In this document: positions 13,063-53,110 of the stretch, in pieces | Position numbering within the stretch: position 1 is the first letter of the stretch | How the letters are laid out: each line of letters starts with the position of its first letter | Source of the DNA: TPA_inf: Saccharomyces | Lineage: Eukaryota | DNA length: 64,000 nucleotides | Reading direction: 5' to 3' | NCBI GenBank assembly: GCA_000146045.2 | Contig: BK006935.2 | Span: 166,219-230,218 of the forward strand | Program-made: the position numbers and the translations under genes | Notes under the pieces: model-generated | Told to the model about the DNA's origin: nothing | Database searches by the model: none | Seen by the model: the letters and a program-made list of their open reading frames with translations, nothing else

Positions 13063-13602
13063 TCATATTGCAGGTATGCCCACATCTGGATATTGACTTT
13101 GCCAATATTCCCGCACAGCATGGGCTTGAATTTCGGCTGCTTTAAAGAGGCACCACTTTACGGTTGGTTCAACATCAGAATTTTGAGTTGCAGCCTGATT
13201 TTCTGGAACACTGATGAACGGCTGTGTATTCGCTGTATCCCACTGTACATCAGGATATTTTCCCTTTATGAGATCCTTGAAAAATTCATAGCACTGGTGT
13301 TCACAAAAAAAGTGGTATGGTGTTTTCCATAAGCCAGCCTTGAACAAATATTGATTCATGTTATACGTTATGGTTTTCCATTCTTTCCCAGCTATCGATG
13401 GTCTATGAGTTATTACCTCTAGTAGAAGTTTTGTACGGAATGTTTCATTACTTATTGGTCTACTGAATGACCATATCTGAAGGACTACCATAGAGCCACC
13501 TAAACATATCCGGATCACCATGGCAGGGGAGAGAACACCAGAAAACCAAATGTTTGTTAAAGTCGCCAAAATCGTCAAGACAAAAAGGAGGAAATTGATC
13601 AT
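13063..13602 (-). CDS. YAR023C: DUP240-family integral membrane protein (annotated 179-aa form; homology extends further upstream)
   Basis: The C-terminal part resembles UIP3/MST28: two hydrophobic segments, then [30 protein letters not shown]...YHFFCEHQCYEFF. An internal ATG at 13602 gives 179 aa. The open frame continues to 13881 and still shows DUP240 N-terminal homology (VLPEDEFASYQSYLLYEI). Confidence 0.7.
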   Translation of the reverse strand: MINFLLFVLTILATLTNIWFSGVLSPAMVIRICLGGSMVVLQIWSFSRPISNETFRTKLLLEVITHRPSIAGKEWKTITYNMNQYLFKAGLWKTPYHFFCEHQCYEFFKDLIKGKYPDVQWDTANTQPFISVPENQAATQNSDVEPTVKWCLFKAAEIQAHAVREYWQSQYPDVGIPAI

Positions 13603-21514: not shown

Positions 21515-21888
21515 ACAGAAGACGGGAGACACTAGCACACAACTTTACCAGGCAAGGTATTTGACGCTAGCATGTGTCCAATTCAGTGTCATTTATGATT
21601 TTTTGTAGTAGGATATAAATATATACAGCGCTCCAAATAGTGCGGTTGCCCCAAAAACACCACGGAACCTCATCTGTTCTCGTACTTTGTTGTGACAAAG
21701 TAGCTCACTGCCTTATTATCACATTTTCATTATGCAACGCTTCGGAAAATACGATGTTGAAAATGCCTCTAGAGATGAAAAACAATCGTAAAAGGGTCCT
21801 GCGTAATTGAAACATTTGATCAGTATGCAGTGGCACAGAAACAACCAGGAATACTATAGTCATAGGCAATACAAGGTATATATTGGCT

Positions 21889-22593
21889 ATGCAGACCCCT
21901 CCAGAAAGTACCGACGTCAAGTTAGATACACTTAACGAACCTAGTGCACATTTAATTGAGAAAAATGTGGCTCTTCCTAAGGACATATTCCGTTCGTACT
22001 TGAGTTATTGGATCTATGAAATCGCTCGCTATACACCAGTCATGATTTTGTCCCTGGTAATAGGGGTTTTGGTTTTATTAATTATATTTTTTAATGACAA
22101 CGAAGCTTGTGTTTTCAATTCTGCAATATTTGCTTTTACTTCTCTTGTAGGTTTGTTAATAATATTAAGTGATGGTAATCCAAAGCTAGTCAGTCGTCGA
22201 AATTTTAGGACCGAGCTTTTAGTGGATGTCATCACACGTAAACCGGCGGTAGAAGGGAAAGAATGGAGGATCATCACATACAACATGAACCAATATTTGT
22301 TTAATCATGGGCAATGGCATACTCCGTATTACTTTTACAGCGATGAGGATTGCTACCGTTATTTTCTACGCCTTGTTGAGGGAGTAACCCCCAAGAAGCA
22401 AACAGCCACGTCAATTGGCAATTCTCCGGTCACCGCTAAGCCTGAAGATGCCATCGAGTCAGCTTCTCCTAGTTCCAGACTGAATTATCAAAACTTTTTG
22501 CTCAAGGCAGCGGAGATCGAACGACAAGCTCAGGAAAATTACTGGCGAAGGCGGCATCCCAATATCGATGCGCTTCTTAAAAAGACGGAATAG
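21889..22593 (+). CDS. MST28: DUP240-family membrane protein implicated in vesicle trafficking, 234 aa
   Basis: [34 protein letters not shown]...[42 protein letters not shown]. The track ORF starts two codons earlier at a TTG. Confidence 0.9.
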   Translation: MQTPPESTDVKLDTLNEPSAHLIEKNVALPKDIFRSYLSYWIYEIARYTPVMILSLVIGVLVLLIIFFNDNEACVFNSAIFAFTSLVGLLIILSDGNPKLVSRRNFRTELLVDVITRKPAVEGKEWRIITYNMNQYLFNHGQWHTPYYFYSDEDCYRYFLRLVEGVTPKKQTATSIGNSPVTAKPEDAIESASPSSRLNYQNFLLKAAEIERQAQENYWRRRHPNIDALLKKTE

Positions 22594-23207: not shown

Positions 23208-23538
23208 TGTTGGAATAAAAATCAACTATCATCTACTAACTAGTGTTTACGTTACTAGTATATTATCATATACGGTGTTAGAAGATGACGCAAATGATGA
23301 GAAATAGTCATCGTTTTCAACGGAAGCTGAAATACAAGGATTGATAATGTAATAGGATCAATGAATATCAACATATAAAACGATGATAATAATATTTATA
23401 GAATTGTGTAGAATTGCAGATTCCCTTTTATGGATTCCTAAATCCTCGAGAAGAACTTCTAGTATATCTACGTACCTAATATTATTGCCTTATTAAAAAT
23501 GGAATCCCAACAATTATCTCAAAATTCCCCCAATTCTC
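23208..23538 (+). mobile_element. Solo Ty1/Ty2 LTR (delta element), ~331 bp
   Basis: TGTTGGAATAAAAATCAACTATCATCTACTAACTAGT...CATATACGGTGTTAGAAGATGACGCAAATGATGAGAAATAGTCATC...AATGGAATCCCAACAATTATCTCAAAATTCCCCCAATTCTCA, a near-consensus delta. Confidence 0.88.
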
Positions 23539-23544
23539 ATCAGT

Positions 23545-23600: not shown

Positions 23601-23974
23601 AACGTAGGACGTGCGGAATGACAAAACCATCAGCAGTGTCACGATCTCTCCAGTCACAATGGCAATCATGAGTGCATAGTCCAAAGTAAAGGGGCAAGGA
23701 AAAGCATGATTGAAAGGACTCCCCATCTGGACTCTATATGTCATCAGCGGCTAAAAAAAAGCATATAGCACAACATCAGCATCAGCATCAGCACTAGAGT
23801 CATCGGCCCGGCGGTCCGCGGTCATCCCCGCGGACTTTCCGTCCGCCCGGCGGGCTGTATCAGCGTCAACTGGAACGCGCATATATATACAAGACACACA
23901 TAACATAGAAGCACACCCACGACAATAACCACACGACAATAACCACACCCGCCCACCCCTCCTTTCCGTATACA

Positions 23975-26038
23975 ATGCCAAACTTAAAGAGACTACCCAT
24001 CCCGCCACTGCAGGACACGCTCAACCGCTACCTGGCACGCGTGGAACCCCTGCAGGACGAGCGCCAAAACCGCCGTACGCGCCGCACTGTGCTCTCCGCA
24101 GAAAACCTGGACGCATTGAACACGCTGCACGAGCGGCTGCTAGAATACGACGCACGGCTCGCGGAAAGCAACCCAGAGTCCTCATACATCGAGCAGTTCT
24201 GGTATGACGCGTACTTGCTATATGATGCAACTGTCGTTCTCAACGTCAACCCGTACTTCCAACTGCAGGACGACCCAACCATCAAAGACACACCAGAGAC
24301 GGCGGCACAGGGCCCCTATGGCGCACACACGGTGCAGGTTCGTCGTGCCGCACGACTCACCACCTCTATTCTCAAGTTCATCCGCCAGATTCGCCACGGC
24401 ACACTCCGCACAGACACTGTGCGCGGCAAAACGCCGCTGTCGATGGACCAGTATGAGCGGCTATTCGGCTCCAGTAGAATCCCTCCGGGTCCCGGCGAGC
24501 CCTCTTGCCACTTGCAAACAGACGCCACGTCGCATCACGTGGTGGCGATGTATCGTGGCCAGTTCTACTGGTTCGACGTGCTGGACACACGCAACGAGCC
24601 CATCTTCGCCACCCCAGAACAACTGGAGTGGAACCTCTACTCGATCATCATGGACGCGGAATCCGCCGGAAGCGGATCCGCGCCCTTTGGCGTGTTCACC
24701 ACAGAGTCGCGCCGGGTGTGGTCCAACATCAGGGACTATCTGTTCCATGCGGACGACTGCACCAACTGGCGCAATCTCAAGCTGATCGACTCCGCGCTGT
24801 TCGTGGTCTGTCTCGACGACGTGGCGTTTGCCGCCGATCAGCAGGACGAGCTCACGCGTTCGATGCTGTGCGGGACTTCTACCATCAATCTCGACCCGCA
24901 CCAACACCAGCCGCCATTGAACGTGCAGACAGGCACCTGTCTCAACCGCTGGTACGACAAGTTACAACTGATCGTGACCAAGAACGGTAAGGCGGGCATC
25001 AACTTCGAACACACCGGTGTGGACGGCCACACTGTGCTGCGGCTCGCCACAGACATCTACACAGACTCGATCCTGAGCTTCGCACGCGGTGTCACCAAGA
25101 ACGTCGTCGACATCTTTAGCGACGACGATGGAAAACCATCGTCGTCGTCGTTGGCCTCGGCGGCTCACTCCGCCAACTTGATCACCATCCCTCGTAAACT
25201 GGAATGGCGCACTGACAATTTCCTGCAATCGTCGCTGCACTTTGCCGAGACGCGCATCTCGGACTTGATCTCGCAATACGAGTTTGTTAATCTTGACTTC
25301 TCCAACTACGGCGCGTCCCATATCAAGACAGTGTTCAAGTGCTCGCCAGACGCCTTCGTGCAGCAGGTGTTCCAGGTCGCATACTTCGCGTTGTACGGTC
25401 GCTTCGAGACCGTGTACGAGCCTGCCATGACCAAGGCGTTCCAAAACGGCCGCACAGAGGCCATCCGCTCCGTCACGGGCCAATCGAAGCTCTTTGTCAA
25501 GTCACTACTGGACCAGGATGCCTCGGACGCCACCAAAATTCAGCTCTTGCACGACGCCTGTACGGCGCACTCGCAAATCACAAGGGAATGCTCCCAGGGG
25601 CTCGGCCAGGACCGTCACTTGTATGCGCTCTACTGCCTCTGGAACCAATGGTACAAGGACAAGTTGGAGCTCCCACCCATCTTCCGCGACAAGTCCTGGA
25701 CTACCATGCAGAACAACGTCTTGAGCACCTCCAACTGCGGTAACCCCTGCCTCAAGAGCTTCGGGTTCGGGCCTGTCACCGCCAACGGCTTCGGCATCGG
25801 CTACATCATCAGAGACCACTCCGTCTCTGTGGTGGTGTCCTCAAGGCATCGCCAGACTGCTCGGTTTGCGTCGCTCATGGAAAAGTCGCTGCTGGAGATC
25901 GACCGCATCTTCAAACGGCAGCAAGCTCGCGCAGCAAAACCCGCTGCCAGGACCACTGCTAGCGCCAACACCAAATCAGAAGACATGAAATACCTGTTGT
26001 CCGGCTACGATTACTTCGACGTGAGCGTGTCCGGTTGA
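23975..26038 (+). CDS. YAT1: Carnitine O-acetyltransferase of the outer mitochondrial membrane, 687 aa; strikingly GC-rich
   Basis: Carnitine/choline acyltransferase homology throughout (e.g. the catalytic EHTGVDGHTVLRL block). ATG start. GC content is far above the surrounding DNA. Confidence 0.9.
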   Translation: MPNLKRLPIPPLQDTLNRYLARVEPLQDERQNRRTRRTVLSAENLDALNTLHERLLEYDARLAESNPESSYIEQFWYDAYLLYDATVVLNVNPYFQLQDDPTIKDTPETAAQGPYGAHTVQVRRAARLTTSILKFIRQIRHGTLRTDTVRGKTPLSMDQYERLFGSSRIPPGPGEPSCHLQTDATSHHVVAMYRGQFYWFDVLDTRNEPIFATPEQLEWNLYSIIMDAESAGSGSAPFGVFTTESRRVWSNIRDYLFHADDCTNWRNLKLIDSALFVVCLDDVAFAADQQDELTRSMLCGTSTINLDPHQHQPPLNVQTGTCLNRWYDKLQLIVTKNGKAGINFEHTGVDGHTVLRLATDIYTDSILSFARGVTKNVVDIFSDDDGKPSSSSLASAAHSANLITIPRKLEWRTDNFLQSSLHFAETRISDLISQYEFVNLDFSNYGASHIKTVFKCSPDAFVQQVFQVAYFALYGRFETVYEPAMTKAFQNGRTEAIRSVTGQSKLFVKSLLDQDASDATKIQLLHDACTAHSQITRECSQGLGQDRHLYALYCLWNQWYKDKLELPPIFRDKSWTTMQNNVLSTSNCGNPCLKSFGFGPVTANGFGIGYIIRDHSVSVVVSSRHRQTARFASLMEKSLLEIDRIFKRQQARAAKPAARTTASANTKSEDMKYLLSGYDYFDVSVSG

Positions 26039-26073
26039 GTTTATGCTGAGTTTTTGCGCATCAATATTATTTT

Positions 26074-26103
26074 TACTACTACTACTACTACTACTACTAC
26101 TAC
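26074..26103. repeat. (TAC)10 trinucleotide microsatellite just 3' of YAT1
   Basis: Direct read: tactactactactactactactactactac. Confidence 0.95.
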
Positions 26104-26400
26104 ATACTATTAAATATACTAAATAAGAGGAAAACGCTTTGGAAGTGACTGGCGCCGCCGCTGGCTACTATAATAGCAGCGACTGTAATTTAATCTCATC
26201 CCGTCGTTTGGATTACCTCTTTTACTCGCCGAGCGAACGTGCACCAAAAAGGGAAAGGAAAAAAAGAAAAAAAAAGGAAAAAGGAAACTCAAAACTTGGA
26301 TAAATAGAAGCACTCAAACTAAATTAAACTGCCAAAAAAAAAAAAAATAAAAAGGGAAAAGTTTAAACATCAAAGTACACCTTTCACCCCTCCACACACC

Positions 26401-29400
26401 ATGGAACAACCTGATCTATCGTCTGTGGCCATCAGTAAGCCGCTGCTGAAGTTGAAACTTCTCGACGCCCTTCGCCAGGGAAGTTTCCCCAACCTACAAG
26501 ATCTCCTAAAGAAACAATTCCAGCCGCTAGACGACCCAAACGTCCAACAAGTGCTCCATCTCATGCTCCACTATGCCGTGCAAGTCGCCCCCATGGCTGT
26601 CATAAAGGAAATCGTCCATCATTGGGTCTCAACTACAAACACCACTTTTCTAAACATCCATCTTGATCTAAACGAACGGGACTCCAACGGCAACACCCCA
26701 TTGCACATCGCCGCCTACCAGTCCCGCGGTGATATCGTAGCCTTCCTCCTGGACCAACCAACCATCAACGACTGCGTGCTCAACAACTCCCACTTGCAGG
26801 CCATCGAAATGTGCAAGAACCTAAACATCGCGCAGATGATGCAGGTGAAACGCTCCACATACGTTGCAGAGACCGCCCAGGAATTCAGAACAGCTTTTAA
26901 CAACAGGGACTTCGGCCACCTAGAATCTATCCTCTCCAGCCCTCGAAACGCAGAACTGCTCGACATCAACGGTATGGACCCGGAGACTGGCGATACCGTT
27001 CTGCACGAATTCGTCAAGAAAAGAGACGTCATCATGTGCCGTTGGTTGCTTGAACACGGTGCTGACCCCTTCAAGAGAGACCGCAAGGGCAAACTGCCCA
27101 TCGAGCTCGTTAGGAAAGTCAATGAAAACGACACCGCCACCAACACCAAGATCGCCATCGACATCGAACTGAAAAAACTATTGGAAAGGGCCACCAGGGA
27201 GCAAAGTGTCATCGACGTCACAAACAACAACTTGCACGAGGCCCCCACTTACAAAGGCTACCTGAAAAAATGGACCAACTTCGCTCAAGGCTACAAATTG
27301 CGTTGGTTCATCCTTAGTAGCGATGGGAAACTATCCTACTACATCGATCAGGCCGACACTAAGAATGCCTGCAGGGGCTCCCTAAACATGTCTTCGTGCT
27401 CTCTGCATTTGGATTCGTCTGAAAAGTTGAAATTCGAAATTATCGGCGGTAACAACGGTGTTATCAGGTGGCATTTAAAGGGGAACCACCCCATCGAGAC
27501 AAATAGATGGGTTTGGGCCATCCAGGGCGCCATAAGATACGCAAAGGACAGAGAAATTTTGCTGCACAATGGCCCCTATTCGCCTTCTCTGGCCTTAAGC
27601 CATGGCTTGTCATCCAAAGTGTCCAATAAAGAAAACTTGCATGCAACTTCAAAACGGTTGACCAAGAGCCCGCATCTGTCCAAATCCACACTGACACAAA
27701 ACGATCACGATAATGACGATGACAGCACTAACAACAACAACAACAAAAGTAATAATGATTATGACGATAATAATAATAATAATAATAATGACGATGATGA
27801 TTATGATGATGATGATGAAAGTAGACCCCTCATAGAACCATTACCGTTGATTTCATCCAGAAGCCAAAGCTTAAGCGAAATCACTCCCGGTCCACATTCT
27901 AGGAAGTCTACAGTCTCGTCTACAAGGGCAGCCGATATACCATCAGATGATGAGGGTTACTCTGAGGACGATTCTGATGACGACGGTAACTCCTCTTACA
28001 CAATGGAAAACGGCGGTGAAAACGATGGCGACGAAGATCTAAATGCCATTTATGGTCCCTATATTCAAAAACTACACATGCTACAAAGATCCATTTCCAT
28101 CGAGTTGGCATCTTTGAACGAATTGCTGCAAGATAAACAACAACACGATGAGTACTGGAACACCGTCAACACTTCTATTGAAACCGTCAGCGAATTTTTC
28201 GACAAATTAAATCGGTTGACCTCTCAAAGGGAAAAAAGAATGATTGCCCAAATGACCAAGCAACGGGATGTTAACAATGTTTGGATTCAATCGGTAAAAG
28301 ATCTGGAAATGGAACTGGTTGATAAAGACGAAAAATTGGTTGCCTTGGATAAAGAACGGAAAAATCTGAAAAAAATGCTTCAAAAAAAATTGAACAATCA
28401 ACCACAGGTTGAAACTGAGGCTAATGAAGAATCCGATGATGCAAATTCAATGATAAAAGGATCCCAAGAATCAACAAATACCCTTGAGGAAATCGTAAAA
28501 TTTATCGAAGCAACAAAGGAAAGTGATGAGGATTCTGACGCCGACGAATTTTTCGACGCAGAAGAAGCTGCTTCCGACAAAAAAGCCAATGATTCGGAAG
28601 ACTTAACCACAAACAAGGAGACTCCAGCTAATGCGAAACCACAAGAAGAAGCTCCTGAAGACGAGAGCCTTATTGTGATCAGTTCTCCACAGGTGGAAAA
28701 GAAGAACCAACTATTAAAAGAGGGATCATTCGTCGGATATGAAGACCCAGTGAGAACCAAACTGGCTTTAGACGAAGATAATCGTCCCAAGATTGGTCTC
28801 TGGTCTGTTTTAAAGTCTATGGTCGGTCAAGACTTAACCAAACTAACTCTACCGGTATCGTTCAATGAGCCAACATCCTTACTACAGAGAGTATCTGAAG
28901 ATATTGAGTATTCTCATATTCTTGACCAAGCTGCCACTTTTGAAGACTCCTCTTTAAGAATGCTATATGTAGCTGCCTTTACTGCATCAATGTACGCATC
29001 TACCACTAACAGAGTGTCTAAACCATTCAACCCCTTACTCGGTGAAACTTTTGAATATGCCAGAACTGATGGTCAGTACCGATTCTTCACCGAACAAGTC
29101 TCTCACCACCCACCTATCTCTGCTACTTGGACAGAATCGCCCAAATGGGATTTTTACGGTGAATGTAATGTTGATTCGTCATTCAATGGGCGCACGTTCG
29201 CCGTGCAACATTTAGGATTATGGTACATTACTATCCGGCCTGATCATAATATTAGTGTTCCCGAGGAAACTTATTCCTGGAAAAAACCAAATAACACTGT
29301 TATCGGTATTTTAATGGGGAAACCACAAGTAGACAACAGTGGGGACGTCAAAGTCACAAACCATACCACAGGCGACTATTGTATGCTGCATTACAAAGCC

Positions 29401-29967
29401 CATGGCTGGACCTCAGCCGGTGCATATGAAGTCAGAGGTGAAGTATTCAACAAGGACGATAAAAAATTATGGGTTCTTGGTGGGCATTGGAATGATTCCA
29501 TTTACGGGAAAAAAGTAACTGCTAGAGGCGGAGAACTGACATTAGACAGAATAAAAACGGCAAATTCTGCCACGGGAGGACCAAAACTAGATGGGTCTAA
29601 GTTTCTGATATGGAAAGCAAATGAAAGGCCTTCAGTGCCATTTAATTTAACGTCGTTTGCATTGACTTTGAATGCTTTGCCACCCCACTTGATACCATAT
29701 TTAGCACCCACAGATAGTCGTTTAAGGCCCGATCAAAGGGCTATGGAAAATGGTGAATACGATAAAGCTGCCGCGGAAAAGCATCGTGTTGAAGTAAAAC
29801 AAAGGGCAGCAAAAAAAGAAAGGGAACAAAAAGGAGAAGAATACAGACCTAAGTGGTTTGTCCAGGAGGAGCACCCCGTTACCAAAAGTCTATACTGGAA
29901 ATTTAATGGAGAGTATTGGAACAAAAGAAAAAATCATGACTTTAAAGATTGTGCTGATATTTTCTAA
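26401..29967 (+). CDS. SWH1: Oxysterol-binding protein homolog with ankyrin repeats, PH domain and OSBP-related domain, 1188 aa
   Basis: N-terminal ankyrin repeats, PH-like region (YKGYLKKWTNFAQGYKLRWFILSSDGKLSYY), an Asn/Asp low-complexity tract, and the OSBP signature EQVSHHPPISA in the C-terminal domain. Confidence 0.93.
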   Translation: MEQPDLSSVAISKPLLKLKLLDALRQGSFPNLQDLLKKQFQPLDDPNVQQVLHLMLHYAVQVAPMAVIKEIVHHWVSTTNTTFLNIHLDLNERDSNGNTPLHIAAYQSRGDIVAFLLDQPTINDCVLNNSHLQAIEMCKNLNIAQMMQVKRSTYVAETAQEFRTAFNNRDFGHLESILSSPRNAELLDINGMDPETGDTVLHEFVKKRDVIMCRWLLEHGADPFKRDRKGKLPIELVRKVNENDTATNTKIAIDIELKKLLERATREQSVIDVTNNNLHEAPTYKGYLKKWTNFAQGYKLRWFILSSDGKLSYYIDQADTKNACRGSLNMSSCSLHLDSSEKLKFEIIGGNNGVIRWHLKGNHPIETNRWVWAIQGAIRYAKDREILLHNGPYSPSLALSHGLSSKVSNKENLHATSKRLTKSPHLSKSTLTQNDHDNDDDSTNNNNNKSNNDYDDNNNNNNNDDDDYDDDDESRPLIEPLPLISSRSQSLSEITPGPHSRKSTVSSTRAADIPSDDEGYSEDDSDDDGNSSYTMENGGENDGDEDLNAIYGPYIQKLHMLQRSISIELASLNELLQDKQQHDEYWNTVNTSIETVSEFFDKLNRLTSQREKRMIAQMTKQRDVNNVWIQSVKDLEMELVDKDEKLVALDKERKNLKKMLQKKLNNQPQVETEANEESDDANSMIKGSQESTNTLEEIVKFIEATKESDEDSDADEFFDAEEAASDKKANDSEDLTTNKETPANAKPQEEAPEDESLIVISSPQVEKKNQLLKEGSFVGYEDPVRTKLALDEDNRPKIGLWSVLKSMVGQDLTKLTLPVSFNEPTSLLQRVSEDIEYSHILDQAATFEDSSLRMLYVAAFTASMYASTTNRVSKPFNPLLGETFEYARTDGQYRFFTEQVSHHPPISATWTESPKWDFYGECNVDSSFNGRTFAVQHLGLWYITIRPDHNISVPEETYSWKKPNNTVIGILMGKPQVDNSGDVKVTNHTTGDYCMLHYKAHGWTSAGAYEVRGEVFNKDDKKLWVLGGHWNDSIYGKKVTARGGELTLDRIKTANSATGGPKLDGSKFLIWKANERPSVPFNLTSFALTLNALPPHLIPYLAPTDSRLRPDQRAMENGEYDKAAAEKHRVEVKQRAAKKEREQKGEEYRPKWFVQEEHPVTKSLYWKFNGEYWNKRKNHDFKDCADIF

Positions 29968-37184: not shown

Positions 37185-40100
37185 ATGACAATGCCTCATC
37201 GCTATATGTTTTTGGCAGTCTTTACACTTCTGGCACTAACTAGTGTGGCCTCAGGAGCCACAGAGGCGTGCTTACCAGCAGGCCAGAGGAAAAGTGGGAT
37301 GAATATAAATTTTTACCAGTATTCATTGAAAGATTCCTCCACATATTCGAATGCAGCATATATGGCTTATGGATATGCCTCAAAAACCAAACTAGGTTCT
37401 GTCGGAGGACAAACTGATATCTCGATTGATTATAATATTCCCTGTGTTAGTTCATCAGGCACATTTCCTTGTCCTCAAGAAGATTCCTATGGAAACTGGG
37501 GATGCAAAGGAATGGGTGCTTGTTCTAATAGTCAAGGAATTGCATACTGGAGTACTGATTTATTTGGTTTCTATACTACCCCAACAAACGTAACCCTAGA
37601 AATGACAGGTTATTTTTTACCACCACAGACGGGTTCTTACACATTCAAGTTTGCTACAGTTGACGACTCTGCAATTCTATCAGTAGGTGGTGCAACCGCG
37701 TTCAACTGTTGTGCTCAACAGCAACCGCCGATCACATCAACGAACTTTACCATTGACGGTATCAAGCCATGGGGTGGAAGTTTGCCACCTAATATCGAAG
37801 GAACCGTCTATATGTACGCTGGCTACTATTATCCAATGAAGGTTGTTTACTCGAACGCTGTTTCTTGGGGTACACTTCCAATTAGTGTGACACTTCCAGA
37901 TGGTACCACTGTAAGTGATGACTTCGAAGGGTACGTCTATTCCTTTGACGATGACCTAAGTCAATCTAACTGTACTGTCCCTGACCCTTCAAATTATGCT
38001 GTCAGTACCACTACAACTACAACGGAACCATGGACCGGTACTTTCACTTCTACATCTACTGAAATGACCACCGTCACCGGTACCAACGGCGTTCCAACTG
38101 ACGAAACCGTCATTGTCATCAGAACTCCAACAACTGCTAGCACCATCATAACTACAACTGAGCCATGGAACAGCACTTTTACCTCTACTTCTACCGAATT
38201 GACCACAGTCACTGGCACCAATGGTGTACGAACTGACGAAACCATCATTGTAATCAGAACACCAACAACAGCCACTACTGCCATAACTACAACTGAGCCA
38301 TGGAACAGCACTTTTACCTCTACTTCTACCGAATTGACCACAGTCACCGGTACCAATGGTTTGCCAACTGATGAGACCATCATTGTCATCAGAACACCAA
38401 CAACAGCCACTACTGCCATGACTACAACTCAGCCATGGAACGACACTTTTACCTCTACTTCTACCGAATTGACCACAGTCACCGGTACCAATGGTTTGCC
38501 AACTGATGAGACCATCATTGTCATCAGAACACCAACAACAGCCACTACTGCCATGACTACAACTCAGCCATGGAACGACACTTTTACCTCTACTTCTACC
38601 GAATTGACCACAGTCACCGGTACCAATGGTTTGCCAACTGATGAGACCATCATTGTCATCAGAACACCAACAACAGCCACTACTGCCATGACTACAACTC
38701 AGCCATGGAACGACACTTTTACCTCTACATCCACTGAAATCACCACCGTCACCGGTACCAATGGTTTGCCAACTGATGAGACCATCATTGTCATCAGAAC
38801 ACCAACAACAGCCACTACTGCCATGACTACACCTCAGCCATGGAACGACACTTTTACCTCTACATCCACTGAAATGACCACCGTCACCGGTACCAACGGT
38901 TTGCCAACTGATGAAACCATCATTGTCATCAGAACACCAACAACAGCCACTACTGCCATAACTACAACTGAGCCATGGAACAGCACTTTTACCTCTACAT
39001 CCACTGAAATGACCACCGTCACCGGTACCAACGGTTTGCCAACTGATGAAACCATCATTGTCATCAGAACACCAACAACAGCCACTACTGCCATAACTAC
39101 AACTCAGCCATGGAACGACACTTTTACCTCTACATCCACTGAAATGACCACCGTCACCGGTACCAACGGTTTGCCAACTGATGAAACCATCATTGTCATC
39201 AGAACACCAACAACAGCCACTACTGCCATGACTACAACTCAGCCATGGAACGACACTTTTACCTCTACATCCACTGAAATCACCACCGTCACCGGTACCA
39301 CCGGTTTGCCAACTGATGAGACCATCATTGTCATCAGAACACCAACAACAGCCACTACTGCCATGACTACAACTCAGCCATGGAACGACACTTTTACCTC
39401 TACATCCACTGAAATGACCACCGTCACCGGTACCAACGGCGTTCCAACTGACGAAACCGTCATTGTCATCAGAACTCCAACTAGTGAAGGTCTAATCAGC
39501 ACCACCACTGAACCATGGACTGGTACTTTCACCTCTACATCCACTGAGATGACCACCGTCACCGGTACTAACGGTCAACCAACTGACGAAACCGTGATTG
39601 TTATCAGAACTCCAACCAGTGAAGGTTTGGTTACAACCACCACTGAACCATGGACTGGTACTTTTACTTCTACATCTACTGAAATGACCACCATTACTGG
39701 AACCAACGGCGTTCCAACTGACGAAACCGTCATTGTCATCAGAACTCCAACCAGTGAAGGTCTAATCAGCACCACCACTGAACCATGGACTGGTACTTTT
39801 ACTTCTACATCTACTGAAATGACCACCATTACTGGAACCAATGGTCAACCAACTGACGAAACCGTTATTGTTATCAGAACTCCAACTAGTGAAGGTCTAA
39901 TCAGCACTACAACGGAACCATGGACCGGTACTTTCACTTCTACATCTACTGAAATGACGCACGTCACCGGTACCAACGGCGTTCCAACTGACGAAACCGT
40001 CATTGTCATCAGAACTCCAACCAGTGAAGGTCTAATCAGCACCACCACTGAACCATGGACTGGCACTTTCACTTCGACTTCCACTGAGGTTACCACCATC

Positions 40101-41798
40101 ACTGGAACCAACGGTCAACCAACTGACGAAACTGTGATTGTTATCAGAACTCCAACCAGTGAAGGTCTAATCAGCACCACCACTGAACCATGGACTGGTA
40201 CTTTCACTTCTACATCTACTGAAATGACCACCGTCACCGGTACTAACGGTCAACCAACTGACGAAACCGTGATTGTTATCAGAACTCCAACCAGTGAAGG
40301 TTTGGTTACAACCACCACTGAACCATGGACTGGTACTTTTACTTCGACTTCCACTGAAATGTCTACTGTCACTGGAACCAATGGCTTGCCAACTGATGAA
40401 ACTGTCATTGTTGTCAAAACTCCAACTACTGCCATCTCATCCAGTTTGTCATCATCATCTTCAGGACAAATCACCAGCTCTATCACGTCTTCGCGTCCAA
40501 TTATTACCCCATTCTATCCTAGCAATGGAACTTCTGTGATTTCTTCCTCAGTAATTTCTTCCTCAGTCACTTCTTCTCTATTCACTTCTTCTCCAGTCAT
40601 TTCTTCCTCAGTCATTTCTTCTTCTACAACAACCTCCACTTCTATATTTTCTGAATCATCTAAATCATCCGTCATTCCAACCAGTAGTTCCACCTCTGGT
40701 TCTTCTGAGAGCGAAACGAGTTCAGCTGGTTCTGTCTCTTCTTCCTCTTTTATCTCTTCTGAATCATCAAAATCTCCTACATATTCTTCTTCATCATTAC
40801 CACTTGTTACCAGTGCGACAACAAGCCAGGAAACTGCTTCTTCATTACCACCTGCTACCACTACAAAAACGAGCGAACAAACCACTTTGGTTACCGTGAC
40901 ATCCTGCGAGTCTCATGTGTGCACTGAATCCATCTCCCCTGCGATTGTTTCCACAGCTACTGTTACTGTTAGCGGCGTCACAACAGAGTATACCACATGG
41001 TGCCCTATTTCTACTACAGAGACAACAAAGCAAACCAAAGGGACAACAGAGCAAACCACAGAAACAACAAAACAAACCACGGTAGTTACAATTTCTTCTT
41101 GTGAATCTGACGTATGCTCTAAGACTGCTTCTCCAGCCATTGTATCTACAAGCACTGCTACTATTAACGGCGTTACTACAGAATACACAACATGGTGTCC
41201 TATTTCCACCACAGAATCGAGGCAACAAACAACGCTAGTTACTGTTACTTCCTGCGAATCTGGTGTGTGTTCCGAAACTGCTTCACCTGCCATTGTTTCG
41301 ACGGCCACGGCTACTGTGAATGATGTTGTTACGGTCTATCCTACATGGAGGCCACAGACTGCGAATGAAGAGTCTGTCAGCTCTAAAATGAACAGTGCTA
41401 CCGGTGAGACAACAACCAATACTTTAGCTGCTGAAACGACTACCAATACTGTAGCTGCTGAGACGATTACCAATACTGGAGCTGCTGAGACGAAAACAGT
41501 AGTCACCTCTTCGCTTTCAAGATCTAATCACGCTGAAACACAGACGGCTTCCGCGACCGATGTGATTGGTCACAGCAGTAGTGTTGTTTCTGTATCCGAA
41601 ACTGGCAACACCAAGAGTCTAACAAGTTCCGGGTTGAGTACTATGTCGCAACAGCCTCGTAGCACACCAGCAAGCAGCATGGTAGGATATAGTACAGCTT
41701 CTTTAGAAATTTCAACGTATGCTGGCAGTGCCAACAGCTTACTGGCCGGTAGTGGTTTAAGTGTCTTCATTGCGTCCTTATTGCTGGCAATTATTTAA
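37185..41798 (+). CDS. FLO1: Lectin-like flocculin, 1537 aa: N-terminal PA14/mannose-binding domain, 18 x 45-aa tandem repeats, Ser/Thr-rich stalk, GPI signal
   Basis: Signal peptide, PA14-type domain (...[29 protein letters not shown]...[34 protein letters not shown]...), a massive tandem array, and a C-terminal hydrophobic GPI-attachment tail. Confidence 0.95.
38016..40446 (+). repeat. 18 tandem copies of a 135-bp (45-aa) repeat inside FLO1, in near-identical sub-blocks
   Basis: Unit ~[44 protein letters not shown]. Two subtypes ([18 protein letters not shown] and [18 protein letters not shown]) each repeat several times, with long runs of 100% identical nucleotides. Confidence 0.9.
40890..41290 (+). 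repeat. Three imperfect ~50-aa repeats in the FLO1 C-terminal stalk ([46 protein letters not shown])
   Basis: Visible in the translation between residues ~1235 and ~1370. Ser-rich 21-bp-type repeats precede them at about 40540-40640. Confidence 0.8.
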
Positions 41799-51906: not shown

Positions 51907-53110
51907 TTGACGAACCAAGAAATGCCTTATCACTATTTATTTTTGGCACTCTTCACCTACCTGGCCACGTCCAATGTTGTTTCAGGAAGTACACAAGCAT
52001 GCCTGCCAGTGGGCCCGAGGAAAAATGGGATGAATGTCAACTTTTATAAATACTCATTACTGGATTCAACAACGTATTCCTACCCGCAATATATGACTTC
52101 TGGATATGCCTCGAATTGGAATTAGGTTCCGTTGGCGGACAGACGGATTTCTCAATTGACTACGATCTTTCTTGTGTTATCTCTTCAGGAACTTTTAAAT
52201 GTGCTCAATCAGATGCTTATGGAAACTGGGGATGCAGAGGTCATAGTGAATGTTCAAAATAGCCAAGAAAGACCTATTGGAGTACTGATTTACTTGGTTT
52301 CTTACTATCCCAAAAAACGCTACTCTAGAAATGACAGGTTACTTTTTACCACCACAAACAAGTTCTTACACGTTCAGGTTTGCTAAGGTCGATGACTCTG
52401 CAATTCTATCAGTCGGTGGTAACGTTGCGTTCGAATGTTGTGCACAAGAACAACCTCCAATTACATCGACGGATTTTACAATCAATGGTATTAAGCCATG
52501 GCAAGGAAGTTTGCCTGATAACATCGGAGGGACTGTCTACATGTATGCAGGCTACTATTATCCGCTGAAGGTTGTTTACTCCAATGCCGTTTCCTGGGGC
52601 ACGCTTCCAATTAGCGTGGAATTGCCTGATGGTACTACTGTTAGTGATGACTTTGAAGGGTACGTTTACTCTTTTGACGATGATTTAAGTCAGTCAAATT
52701 GTACTATCCCTGATCCTTCAAAACATACTACTAGCATCGTCACAACTACTACCGAACTGTGGACTGGTACTTTTACTTCTACATCTACTGAAATGACCAC
52801 CGTCACCGGTACTAATGGTCAACCAACTGACGAAACCGTTATTGTTGCCAAAGCTCCAACCACTGCCACCTCATCCAGTTTGTCATCATCTTCTTCAGAA
52901 CAAATCACCAGCTCTATCACGTCTTAGCATCCAATTATTACTCCATTCTATCGCAGCAATGGAACTTCTGTAGTTTCTTCCTCAGTCATGTCTTCCTCGG
53001 TCATTTCTTCTTCTGCAACGACCTCCACTTCTATATTCTCTGAATCATCTAAATCATCCGTCATTCAAACCAGTAGTTCCACCTCTGGTTCTTCTGAGAG
53101 CGAAACAATC
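51907..53110 (+). pseudogene. YAR062W: FLO1-like flocculin pseudogene (annotated pieces YAR061W and YAR062W): N-terminal domain with frameshifts/stops, repeat array collapsed to one unit, abrupt 3' truncation
   Basis: MTNQEMPYHYLFLALFTYLATSNVVSGSTQACLPVGPRKNGMNVNFYKYSL... (51907-52125) matches the FLO1 signal peptide and N-terminus and then loses frame. 52331-52927 encodes [30 protein letters not shown]...[34 protein letters not shown]..., then a single 45-aa repeat and [18 protein letters not shown]. Homology to the FLO1 Ser-rich region continues to ~53110 and then stops. Confidence 0.85.

What the first reader, a model, noticed from the sequence alone, without database searches (positions are those of the whole stretch)
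23700..26040. Sharply bounded GC-rich island coextensive with YAT1
From ~23750 to the YAT1 stop the DNA is roughly 55-60% G+C, against under 40% on both sides. The ORF track fills all six frames with spurious ORFs here, the usual signature of stop-poor GC-rich DNA. The island begins just after the delta/DUP240 debris, includes ~220 bp 5' of the ATG (ccggcggtccgcggtcatccccgcgg...), and ends within ~40 bp of the stop at a (TAC)10 microsatellite. Such an isolated compositional island could reflect strong codon or biased-gene-conversion history, or a foreign or introgressed origin of the gene.
Basis: seen in the sequence. Interest (0 to 1): 0.5.

Follow-up and report, generated by a model that had tools for sequence, protein, structure and literature searches.

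The report
GC-rich island over yeast YAT1 gene
The yeast carnitine acetyltransferase gene YAT1 really is a sharp island of GC-rich DNA, but it is an ordinary inherited gene whose silent sites have been driven towards G and C at this one chromosomal spot in the whole Saccharomyces genus, not a foreign gene.

Summary
The 687-codon YAT1 ORF (23975-26038) has 58.0% G+C and GC3 0.767, in a window averaging 39.5% with other ORFs at GC3 0.33-0.47. Maximum-likelihood segmentation places the island at 23785-26035.

It is not strictly coextensive with YAT1. At silent sites it runs past the AT-rich intergenic spacer into the first ~420 codons of SWH1 (GC3 0.57-0.77), then falls to 0.30-0.45.

The gene is not foreign:
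- It sits in the ancestral ADE1-KIN3-CDC15-YAT1-OSH order, as in Torulaspora and Kluyveromyces.
- Its protein nests within Saccharomycetaceae.
- Orthologs in S. paradoxus, S. mikatae, S. arboricola, S. uvarum and S. eubayanus show the same or a stronger island (GC3 0.70-0.91).
- A second YAT1 copy in S. uvarum and S. eubayanus lies in the duplicated sister block on chromosome IV. It has ordinary composition (GC3 0.37).

Codon adaptation is excluded: Fop is 0.49 and rare codons such as CGC, CTG, GCG and TCG dominate. Polarised substitutions show excess AT-to-GC and a deficit of GC-to-AT changes relative to the 3' part of SWH1.

The best explanation is long-lived GC-biased gene conversion at a conserved recombination hotspot. 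This is inferred, because no recombination data could be examined. YAT1's GC-richness is already well known from its use as an R-loop reporter.

The parts
23975..26038 (+). YAT1 coding sequence (687 codons), the core of the island: GC 0.580, GC3 0.767
   Evidence: ORF listed; composition; Pfam PF00755 Carn_acyltransf at E=5e-184; 100% identical to S. cerevisiae Yat1 proteins.
23797..23860 (+). Conserved GC-rich promoter block (73% GC) rich in CGG/CCG triplets; this is the 5' extension of the island
   Evidence: GC. The block aligns with many invariant columns in all six Saccharomyces species. That it is an upstream activating sequence for zinc-cluster activators is inference from the CGG/CCG triplets and from YAT1's known ethanol induction (own knowledge).
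23839..23849 (+). CCGTCCGCCCG, a match to the carbon-source-responsive element consensus CCRTYSRNCCG (Cat8/Sip4 type)
   Evidence: It is the only match in the 64-kb window. Chance expectation is 0.54, so it is not significant alone. The consensus is recalled from own knowledge. S. paradoxus and S. mikatae differ at some positions.
23881..23890 (+). TATA-like element ATATATATAC
   Evidence: Read from the sequence; conserved in the six-species promoter alignment.
26039..26400 (.). AT-rich YAT1-SWH1 spacer (35.6% GC) interrupting the silent-site island; holds (TAC)n at 26074-26109 and A-tracts at 26246-26353
   Evidence: The (TAC)n array is absent or degenerate in the other five species. That the spacer is a candidate nucleosome-free double-strand-break site is inference.
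26401..27660 (+). SWH1 (OSH1) codons 1-420: the shoulder of the island, total GC 0.499, GC3 0.57-0.77
   Evidence: GC3 profile in all six species; GC; Pfam Oxysterol_BP, PH and Ank domains.
27661..29967 (+). SWH1 codons 421 to end: baseline composition (GC3 0.25-0.46), used as the local control
23211..23541 (+). Solo Ty delta-like LTR (30% GC), left neighbour of the island
   Evidence: Recognised from the TGTTGG...TCTCA termini in the sequence using own knowledge; not tested with a tool. GC.
21883..22593 (+). DUP240-family ORF upstream, ordinary composition (GC3 0.409)
   Evidence: Pfam PF00674 DUP at E=1.6e-31; composition. DUP genes lie upstream of YAT1 in S. paradoxus, S. mikatae, S. uvarum and S. 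eubayanus; none was called in the S. arboricola locus.

Best explanation
YAT1 is a vertically inherited carnitine O-acetyltransferase gene at its ancestral chromosomal position. Its GC-richness comes from a locus-specific, long-running substitution bias towards G and C. The bias began after the whole-genome duplication and before the Saccharomyces species split.

**Where the bias acts**
- It covers about 3.7 kb: YAT1 plus the first ~1.2 kb of SWH1.
- It is strongest at silent third positions.
- It has also pushed the protein towards Gly/Ala/Arg/Pro.

**Where it is masked**
- The promoters and the terminator spacer must stay AT-rich, so the bias is hidden there.
- The exception is a conserved CGG-rich regulatory block upstream of YAT1.

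**Most likely mechanism (inferred, not shown)**
- GC-biased gene conversion from evolutionarily conserved meiotic break sites in the YAT1 and SWH1 promoters.
- YAT1 would be bathed in conversion tracts from both sides and SWH1 from its 5' side only.
- The tendency of GC-rich DNA to recombine more may reinforce this.

**State of the bias today**
- Strongest in S. uvarum, S. eubayanus and S. arboricola.
- Weaker but still active in S. cerevisiae.
- Apparently lost in S. paradoxus.
For: **Shown: vertical descent**
- The order ADE1-KIN3-CDC15-YAT1-OSH in Torulaspora and Kluyveromyces is the same as in the window.
- The six chromosome-I Yat1 proteins form a 100% clade inside Saccharomycetaceae and never group with GC-rich K. 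naganishii.

**Shown: the island is locus-specific**
- GC3 is 0.767 in S. cerevisiae, 0.704 in S. paradoxus, 0.739 in S. mikatae, 0.857 in S. arboricola, 0.914 in S. uvarum and 0.893 in S. eubayanus. Flanking genes are ordinary.
- The chromosome-IV sister copy has GC3 0.372 in both S. uvarum and S. eubayanus, and the adjacent OSH2 shows no 5' gradient.
- Orthologs in K. africana, V. polyspora, T. delbrueckii and K. lactis match their neighbours in composition.

**Shown: the force is not codon-level**
- GARP amino acids make up 0.24-0.28 of the protein, against 0.18 in the sister copy.
- The 3' spacer is GC-richer in S. uvarum and S. mikatae.
- GC3 declines gradually along SWH1.

**Shown: substitution bias**
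- Pooled over terminal branches, the W>S rate is 0.229 against 0.134 in the control (p=1.4e-4).
- The S>W rate is 0.066 against 0.154 (p=3.8e-13).
- Implied equilibrium GC3 is 0.82 on the S. cerevisiae branch and 0.95 on the S. uvarum branch, against 0.39-0.55 in the control apart from S. arboricola (0.69).
- Overall third-position divergence is similar to the control.

**Literature**
- Yeast GC3 follows distance from break sites that lie outside coding sequence (PMC3020949).
- Hotspot positions and strengths are conserved across Saccharomyces (bioRxiv 10.1101/023176).
- A 63% GC URA3 allele is itself a meiotic and mitotic recombination hotspot (PMC6064992).
Against: - No recombination or break-map data for this locus could be consulted, and no paper linking YAT1 to a hotspot was found.
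- Measured GC-biased conversion in S. cerevisiae is described as crossover-specific (PMC3649680), and I recall it being small. A GC3 of 0.77-0.91 is far beyond the average gene-end effect.
- GC3 is roughly flat across the 2 kb of YAT1 rather than clearly peaked at the ends.
- Divergence data alone cannot separate a fixation bias from a local change in mutation spectrum.
- Parsimony polarisation in GC-rich, fairly diverged sequence somewhat inflates W>S counts (my estimate is 2-3 of the 26 on the S. cerevisiae branch).
- Requiring agreement among reference species enriches for conserved sites.
Confidence: 0.6

Rival explanations
1. A local mutational bias unrelated to meiotic conversion produces more AT-to-GC and fewer GC-to-AT mutations at this locus. 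Candidate sources are transcription, R-loop-associated repair or error-prone polymerase activity on GC-rich templates.
For: - The substitution asymmetry is equally predicted by a changed mutation spectrum.
- YAT1 forms R-loops when highly transcribed (PMC10511428).
- GC-rich URA3 has a sevenfold higher, polymerase-zeta-dependent mutation rate (PMC6064992).
Against: - Third-position divergence in YAT1 is not elevated relative to SWH1 3', which argues against a hypermutable locus.
- Known yeast mutation spectra are AT-biased (own knowledge).
- The gradient crosses a transcription-unit boundary into SWH1.
- YAT1 is a glucose-repressed, weakly expressed gene (own knowledge).
Confidence: 0.15
2. 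Natural selection favours GC-rich sequence in YAT1 itself, for example for mRNA structure or stability, nucleosome occupancy, or THO-dependent regulated expression.
For: - The island has been maintained for the whole history of the genus.
- The GC-to-AT rate is reduced in five of six lineages, significantly in four.
- GC-rich ORFs have distinctive transcription requirements (title of Chavez et al. 2001, as cited in PMC11893903).
Against: - The enrichment extends into the unrelated neighbouring gene SWH1.
- The normal-GC sister copy and all non-Saccharomyces orthologs do without it.
- S. paradoxus has lost the bias while keeping the gene intact.
- Protein composition has been dragged along. That looks like a by-product rather than a target of selection.
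Confidence: 0.1
3. Foreign or introgressed origin: before the Saccharomyces radiation the chromosome-I copy was replaced by a xenolog from a GC-rich yeast.
For: - The composition is highly atypical.
- The chromosome-I clade groups with the Zygosaccharomyces/Torulaspora clade rather than with the chromosome-IV copy (73% against 7% bootstrap).
Against: - The ancestral gene order is exact.
- No donor-like relative exists: the closest non-Saccharomyces proteins are only about 70% identical.
- The ZT affinity is expected under the hybrid-origin model of the genome duplication (own knowledge). It may also be a compositional artefact.
- GC3 grades into SWH1 instead of stopping at an insertion boundary.
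- The bias is still operating on terminal branches, which a one-off transfer does not explain.
Confidence: 0.04
4. Translational codon selection in a highly expressed gene.
For: Many C-ending two-fold codons that are optimal in yeast (GAC, AAC, TAC, TTC, ATC, CAC) are strongly preferred.
Against: - Fop is 0.494, within the range of its weakly expressed neighbours (0.39-0.60).
- Arg is CGC 24 against AGA 3, and Leu is CTG+CTC 46 against TTG 13.
- GCG, TCG, GTG, CAG, GAG and GGC are all over-used although non-optimal.
- First and second positions are shifted too.
Confidence: 0.02

Closest known systems
GC3 enrichment of yeast coding sequence near meiotic double-strand-break sites (Marsolier-Kergoat model, PMC3020949), with hotspots conserved across Saccharomyces (Lam and Keeney, bioRxiv 10.1101/023176)
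   Same: - Silent-site GC is raised in coding DNA adjacent to promoter-containing intergenic regions.
- It decays over about 1-2 kb into SWH1.
- The pattern persists across species, as expected if hotspot positions are conserved.
   Different: - The amplitude is far larger: GC3 reaches 0.77-0.91, against a genome-typical rise that I recall as only a few points.
- GC3 across YAT1 forms a plateau rather than end peaks.
- Hotspot activity at this locus was not examined here.
Mouse Fxy (Mid1) gene straddling the pseudoautosomal boundary, a textbook case of a gene made GC-rich by a move into a highly recombining region (own knowledge)
   Same: - One gene, or part of one, becomes extremely GC3-rich, with accompanying amino-acid changes.
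- The comparison copy in a normal recombination environment keeps ordinary composition. Here that copy is the chromosome-IV sister gene in S. uvarum and S. eubayanus.
   Different: - Here the gene has not moved: it is at the ancestral locus.
- The comparison is between duplicated copies within one genome.
- The high recombination rate is inferred rather than known.
Published use of YAT1 as the standard 'GC-rich yeast ORF' in THO/R-loop studies (PMC10511428, PMC11893903; Chavez et al. 2001 as cited there)
   Same: Same gene and same property. The literature states that the YAT1 ORF is GC-rich and forms R-loops when highly transcribed.
   Different: None of the papers found in my searches addresses the evolutionary origin of the composition, its extent into SWH1, its state in other species, or the normal-GC sister copy.
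Horizontally acquired genes of S. cerevisiae, such as URA1, BDS1, BIO3/4 and the wine-yeast regions from Zygosaccharomyces or Torulaspora (own knowledge)
   Same: Composition is atypical relative to the host genome, and the gene lies in a subtelomere-like neighbourhood containing DUP240, PAU and FLO genes and a Ty LTR.
   Different: Synteny is ancestral, the phylogeny is ordinary fungal, and the gene is present at the same locus across the genus.

Membership tests
Choline/carnitine O-acyltransferase (Pfam PF00755); YAT1 orthogroup | Full-length match to the family profile above the curated cut-off | tested here: met
   PF00755 at E=5e-184, 613.5 bits against a cut-off of 22.3, covering residues 7-636 and profile positions 1-573 of 574.
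Choline/carnitine O-acyltransferase (Pfam PF00755); YAT1 orthogroup | Orthology to YAT1 by identity and conserved neighbours | tested here: met
   100% identity to S. cerevisiae Yat1 proteins. An oxysterol-binding-protein gene lies downstream in all 11 species examined across 12 gene copies.
GC-biased-gene-conversion island at a recombination hotspot | GC excess greatest at silent sites but also seen at replacement sites and in non-coding DNA | tested here: met
   - GC3 is 0.767, GC1 0.549 and GC2 0.424, against neighbours at about 0.40, 0.45 and 0.35.
- GARP amino acids are 0.24-0.28 against 0.18 in the sister copy.
- The 3' spacer is 0.44-0.47 GC in S. mikatae and S. uvarum but only 0.31-0.36 in S. 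cerevisiae, S. paradoxus and S. arboricola.
GC-biased-gene-conversion island at a recombination hotspot | Enrichment ignores gene boundaries and decays with distance | tested here: met
   SWH1 GC3 is 0.57-0.87 over codons 1-420 and falls to 0.25-0.45 beyond about codon 660, in all six species. No such gradient exists in OSH2 of the sister block.
GC-biased-gene-conversion island at a recombination hotspot | Polarised substitutions show raised AT-to-GC and lowered GC-to-AT rates at unchanged total rate | tested here: met
   Pooled odds ratios are 1.92 (p=1.4e-4) and 0.39 (p=3.8e-13) against SWH1 3'. Third-position divergence is similar to the control. S. paradoxus is an exception, with no bias. 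Polarisation was by parsimony only.
GC-biased-gene-conversion island at a recombination hotspot | Coincides with a measured meiotic double-strand-break or crossover hotspot | not testable with these tools
   No break or crossover map is available here, and literature searches for YAT1/YAR035W with hotspot or recombination found nothing relevant.
GC-biased-gene-conversion island at a recombination hotspot | AT-to-GC derived alleles segregate at higher frequency than GC-to-AT alleles | not tested
   Only three S. uvarum alleles were in hand, with 3 differences in total. This is too few to test.
Horizontally transferred or introgressed gene | Phylogenetic position conflicts with the species tree or points to a distant donor | tested here: not met
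   All 120 best hits that carry a source name are budding yeasts (Saccharomycotina), with identity falling as phylogenetic distance grows. The neighbour-joining tree gives a 100% Saccharomyces clade inside a 100% Saccharomycetaceae clade.
Horizontally transferred or introgressed gene | Absent from the syntenic position in relatives (insertion into the recipient) | tested here: not met
   YAT1 lies between CDC15 and the OSH gene in T. delbrueckii and K. lactis and at the same place in the window.
Horizontally transferred or introgressed gene | Atypical base composition | tested here: met
   About 5.7 sd above other 2-kb windows. This feature is not specific to transfer.
Translationally selected, highly expressed yeast gene | High frequency of yeast-optimal codons | tested here: not met
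   Fop is 0.494 against 0.39-0.60 in neighbours, and rare GC-ending codons are heavily used. The optimal-codon list was taken from own knowledge.

The most novel reading that the evidence does not exclude
The YAT1-SWH1 island may mark an exceptionally strong recombination hotspot on the smallest yeast chromosome. It would have been active since before the Saccharomyces radiation and possibly be self-reinforcing. That would make it a yeast counterpart of the mouse Fxy case.

It comes with a built-in control, because S. uvarum and S. eubayanus carry two YAT1 copies from the genome duplication with GC3 0.91 and 0.37 in the same nucleus. It also shows lineage-specific switching: the bias is lost in S. 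paradoxus and strongest in S. uvarum. Together these could calibrate how strong GC-biased conversion can become in yeast, where direct measurements find it weak.
Probability: 0.3. Interest if true: 0.5.

Novelty: already known. Interest (0 to 1): 0.3.

Why it matters
That YAT1 is unusually GC-rich is textbook-level knowledge among people who study transcription-associated instability, so the feature itself is not new. It is also not evidence of gene transfer.

What this analysis adds is the evolutionary picture:
- The island is genus-wide and reaches GC3 0.91.
- It spills into SWH1.
- It is still being maintained in most lineages.
- It has a normal-composition duplicate in S. uvarum and S. eubayanus.

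If the cause is biased gene conversion, this locus is an unusually clean natural experiment. It could measure how far that process can drive composition and protein sequence in a genome where it is thought to be weak.

Tried and rejected
- **Foreign origin:** rejected on synteny, phylogeny and the composition of orthologs.
- **Attraction to GC-rich K. naganishii:** 0% bootstrap. There the whole region is GC-rich rather than the gene alone.
- **Codon adaptation:** rejected.
- **(TAC)n as a conserved boundary element:** it is specific to S. cerevisiae.
- **Carbon-source element match as statistical evidence:** there is one hit against 0.54 expected, so it is only suggestive.
- **Polymorphism test in S. 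uvarum:** only 3 differences among three alleles, which is uninformative.
- **Literature on a hotspot at YAT1/YAR035W, or on the chromosome-IV copy:** nothing found.
- **Papers not held in the library:** Chavez et al. 2001 and the paper I tried to open by a recalled PMC id for Pan et al. 2011.
- **Unnamed homologs P0026, P0030 and P0052,** considered as possible closer chromosome-I-type orthologs: their amino-acid composition is ordinary, and no look-ups remained to fetch their DNA.
- **Not attempted:** a search for a relic of the chromosome-IV copy in S. cerevisiae, a side issue I judged not worth a capped whole-database search.
Full report
**1. The observation**

The window is the right arm of S. 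cerevisiae chromosome I. The evidence:
- The 687-codon ORF at 23975-26038 is 100% identical to S. cerevisiae Yat1 proteins. It is a full-length choline/carnitine acyltransferase (PF00755, E=5e-184).
- The ORF downstream, 26401-29967, is an ankyrin/PH/oxysterol-binding protein (SWH1/OSH1).
- Upstream lie a DUP240-family ORF and a Ty delta-like LTR, recognised by eye.
- ADE1-, KIN3- and CDC15-like ORFs lie at 3157-8917. The CDC15-like kinase was confirmed by Pfam; the other two were matched by ORF size, order and strand to the Torulaspora and Kluyveromyces loci.

Composition of the island:
- The YAT1 CDS is 58.0% G+C (GC1 0.549, GC2 0.424, GC3 0.767).
- The window averages 39.5%, and 17 other ORFs have GC3 0.33-0.47.
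- 2-kb windows elsewhere average 0.387 (sd 0.034, maximum 0.471).
- A likelihood segmentation puts the island at 23785-26035.
- Stop-free stretches of at least 80 codons occupy all six frames, at 5.8 per kb against 1.8 per kb elsewhere.
- (TAC)11.7 lies at 26074-26109.

The description is therefore accurate, with two refinements.
- The 5' extension is a single 64-bp block of 73% GC (23797-23860), followed by a TATA element and a leader of 48% GC.
- The 3' side is not 'under 40%'. Beyond the 362-bp spacer, the first 1.26 kb of SWH1 is 49.9% GC.

**2. The island is larger at silent sites**

GC3 in 60-codon bins is 0.66-0.87 all along YAT1. In SWH1 it is 0.57-0.77 over codons 1-420, and it then declines to 0.25-0.46. 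The same profile is seen in all six Saccharomyces species.

The AT-rich spacer carries the microsatellite and long A-tracts. It interrupts the island in total GC, presumably because terminator and promoter function requires AT-rich sequence (inference). Upstream, the DUP240 gene shows no enrichment (GC3 0.41).

**3. Relatives**

The chromosome-I ortholog, always followed by SWH1, has these values:

| Species | GC3 | Total GC |
|---|---|---|
| S. paradoxus | 0.704 | not quoted |
| S. mikatae | 0.739 | not quoted |
| S. arboricola | 0.857 | not quoted |
| S. uvarum | 0.914 | 65.6% |
| S. eubayanus | 0.893 | not quoted |

Outside the genus the ortholog has the composition of its neighbours:
- K. 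africana GC3 0.30.
- V. polyspora GC3 0.21.
- T. delbrueckii GC3 0.43.
- K. lactis GC3 0.43.
- K. naganishii GC3 0.81, but there every gene in the region is 0.67-0.85.

In T. delbrueckii and K. lactis the gene order is ADE1-KIN3-CDC15-YAT1-OSH. This is the order in the window apart from the inserted PAU/DUP240/LTR material. YAT1 is therefore at its ancestral locus.

**4. A natural control**

S. uvarum and S. eubayanus each carry a second YAT1 that is 64% identical to S. cerevisiae Yat1.
- It lies between an ERP3-like gene and a 1292-residue OSH2-like gene, flanked by TSC13-, CDC7-, GPM2- and GPD1-like genes.
- This is the sister block of YAT1-SWH1 from the whole-genome duplication.
- That copy has GC 0.39 and GC3 0.372 in both species, and the adjacent OSH2 has no 5' GC3 rise.
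- No protein of this type from S. cerevisiae, S. paradoxus, S. mikatae or S. arboricola appeared among the best 120 hits.
- Kazachstania species keep their single copy in the chromosome-IV-type block.

The GC enrichment is therefore a property of the chromosome-I locus in Saccharomyces. It is not a property of the gene family or of the protein's function.

**5. Phylogeny**

A neighbour-joining tree was built from 585 gap-free columns with Kimura distances and 300 bootstraps.
- The six chromosome-I proteins form a 100% clade, nested in a 100% Saccharomycetaceae clade.
- The clade never groups with K. naganishii.
- It groups with the Zygosaccharomyces/Torulaspora clade at 73% and with the chromosome-IV pair at 7%.

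The 73% grouping is compatible with a hybrid origin of the duplication (own knowledge). It could also be a compositional artefact, because GARP residues are 0.24-0.28 in the chromosome-I proteins, 0.18 in the sister copy and about 0.20 in the ZT species. Nothing suggests a non-yeast or distant donor.

**6. Nature of the bias**

Codon adaptation is excluded.
- Fop is 0.494, against 0.39-0.60 in neighbours.
- Non-optimal GC-ending codons dominate: CGC 24 against AGA 3, CTG+CTC 46 against TTG 13, and GCG, TCG, GTG, CAG, GAG and GGC are all favoured.

Parsimony-polarised third-position changes gave these counts:

| Branch | W>S | S>W | Implied equilibrium GC3 |
|---|---|---|---|
| S. cerevisiae | 26 | 22 | 0.82 |
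| S. mikatae | 10 | 36 | 0.70 |
| S. arboricola | 2 | 14 | 0.87 |
| S. uvarum | 9 | 13 | 0.95 |
| S. eubayanus | 2 | 20 | 0.81 |
| S. paradoxus | 10 | 50 | 0.49 |
| SWH1 3' control (all branches) | - | - | 0.39-0.55 (0.69 in S. arboricola) |

- Pooled, the W>S rate is 1.9-fold higher (p=1.4e-4) and the S>W rate 2.5-fold lower (p=3.8e-13) than in the control.
- Total third-position divergence is similar to the control.
- On the branch leading to S. cerevisiae, S. paradoxus and S. mikatae there are 31 S>W changes against 1 W>S.

The genus ancestor was therefore probably at GC3 of about 0.9 or more, and the S. cerevisiae clade has partly relaxed.

**7. The promoter block**

The 23797-23860 block aligns in all six species with many invariant positions. 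It is rich in CGG/CCG triplets. It also contains the only match in the window to the carbon-source-responsive element consensus (23839-23849; 0.54 expected by chance).

YAT1 is ethanol-inducible (title of Schmalix and Bandlow 1993, cited in PMC10085025). I therefore read this block as a conserved activator-binding region, not as compositional spill-over. This is inference.

**8. Mechanism**

The pattern has these features:
- It is silent-site-dominated.
- It crosses a gene boundary and decays over about 1-2 kb.
- It affects amino acids.
- It persists across a genus in which hotspot positions and strengths are conserved (bioRxiv 10.1101/023176).
- It shows a substitution asymmetry without a rate increase.

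This matches GC-biased gene conversion from break sites in the two promoter regions (model in PMC3020949; mechanism in PMC3649680). GC-rich DNA is itself recombinogenic (PMC6064992), so positive feedback is possible.

Three weaknesses remain.
- The recombination activity of this locus was not examined.
- The amplitude far exceeds the typical yeast effect.
- A local mutation bias cannot be excluded from divergence data alone.

I give 0.6 to the whole statement. The vertical-descent part I hold at about 0.95.

**9. Novelty**

The GC-richness of YAT1 is established knowledge. The gene is the standard 'GC-rich ORF' and R-loop-forming reporter (PMC10511428, PMC11893903, and Chavez et al. 2001 cited there).

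I found no paper in the held library on four points:
- the cause of the composition;
- its extension into SWH1;
- its strength in other species;
- the normal-GC sister copy.

The feature as flagged is already known and is not a transfer event. The evolutionary details are a modest addition.

Noticed in passing
L001:10001-12145 (S. eubayanus) and L014:6001-8139 (S. uvarum): Both species keep a second YAT1, 64% identical to S. cerevisiae Yat1, between ERP3-like and OSH2-like genes. This is the duplicated sister block of YAT1-SWH1. Its composition is ordinary (GC3 0.372). No such protein from S. cerevisiae, S. paradoxus, S. mikatae or S. arboricola appeared among the best hits.
   Followed up: partly
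window:26401-27660: SWH1 codons 1-420 have GC3 0.57-0.77, falling to 0.25-0.46 downstream, in all six Saccharomyces species. OSH2 in the sister block shows no such gradient.
   Followed up: yes
L005:10001-12079 (S. paradoxus YAT1): On the S. paradoxus branch the AT-to-GC and GC-to-AT rates in YAT1 equal those of the control region (10 against 50 changes, implied equilibrium GC3 0.49). The GC-favouring process appears to have stopped in that lineage.
   Followed up: partly
window:24652-24681; L002 and L013 YAT1: S. cerevisiae has an imperfect 16-bp tandem repeat here. At this region of the protein, S. eubayanus Yat1 carries a longer Ala/Gly/Ser-rich insertion (NGAGGGAAASATSATSAAP against SAGSGSAP); a second Ala-rich stretch lies further on. 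S. uvarum Yat1 is similarly long (732 aa) and Ala-rich. This looks like slippage-type expansion in GC-rich DNA.
   Followed up: no
window:26074-26109: The (TAC)n microsatellite just after the YAT1 stop is specific to S. cerevisiae. It is degenerate in S. paradoxus, replaced by (TG)n in S. mikatae, and absent in the other species.
   Followed up: yes
window:23918-23948: A perfect 14-bp direct repeat, CACGACAATAACCA, present in 2.2 copies in the YAT1 5' leader. It is not conserved in the other species' promoters.
   Followed up: no
window:5993-8917 (-): The CDC15-like ORF has GC3 0.51-0.56 in its first 300 codons and 0.37-0.44 afterwards. This is a mild 5' rise, either the generic gene-end effect or a faint relic of its former adjacency to YAT1.
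   Followed up: no
window:37185-41798 and 52120-53011: A FLO1-like 1537-codon ORF contains 17 copies of a 135-bp tandem repeat (38003-40462). Partial copies of its flanks, at 74-86% identity, lie about 14.7 kb downstream.
   Followed up: no
window:17531-22593: Four tandemly arranged DUP240-family copies at 61-81% identity, plus an inverted partial copy at 13277-13431. They lie between CDC15 and YAT1, where non-duplicated yeasts have no genes.
   Followed up: no
L008 (K. naganishii, whole 18-kb locus): The entire syntenic region is GC-rich, with all nine genes at GC3 0.53-0.85. High GC3 in that species' YAT1 is regional or genomic rather than gene-specific.
   Followed up: no
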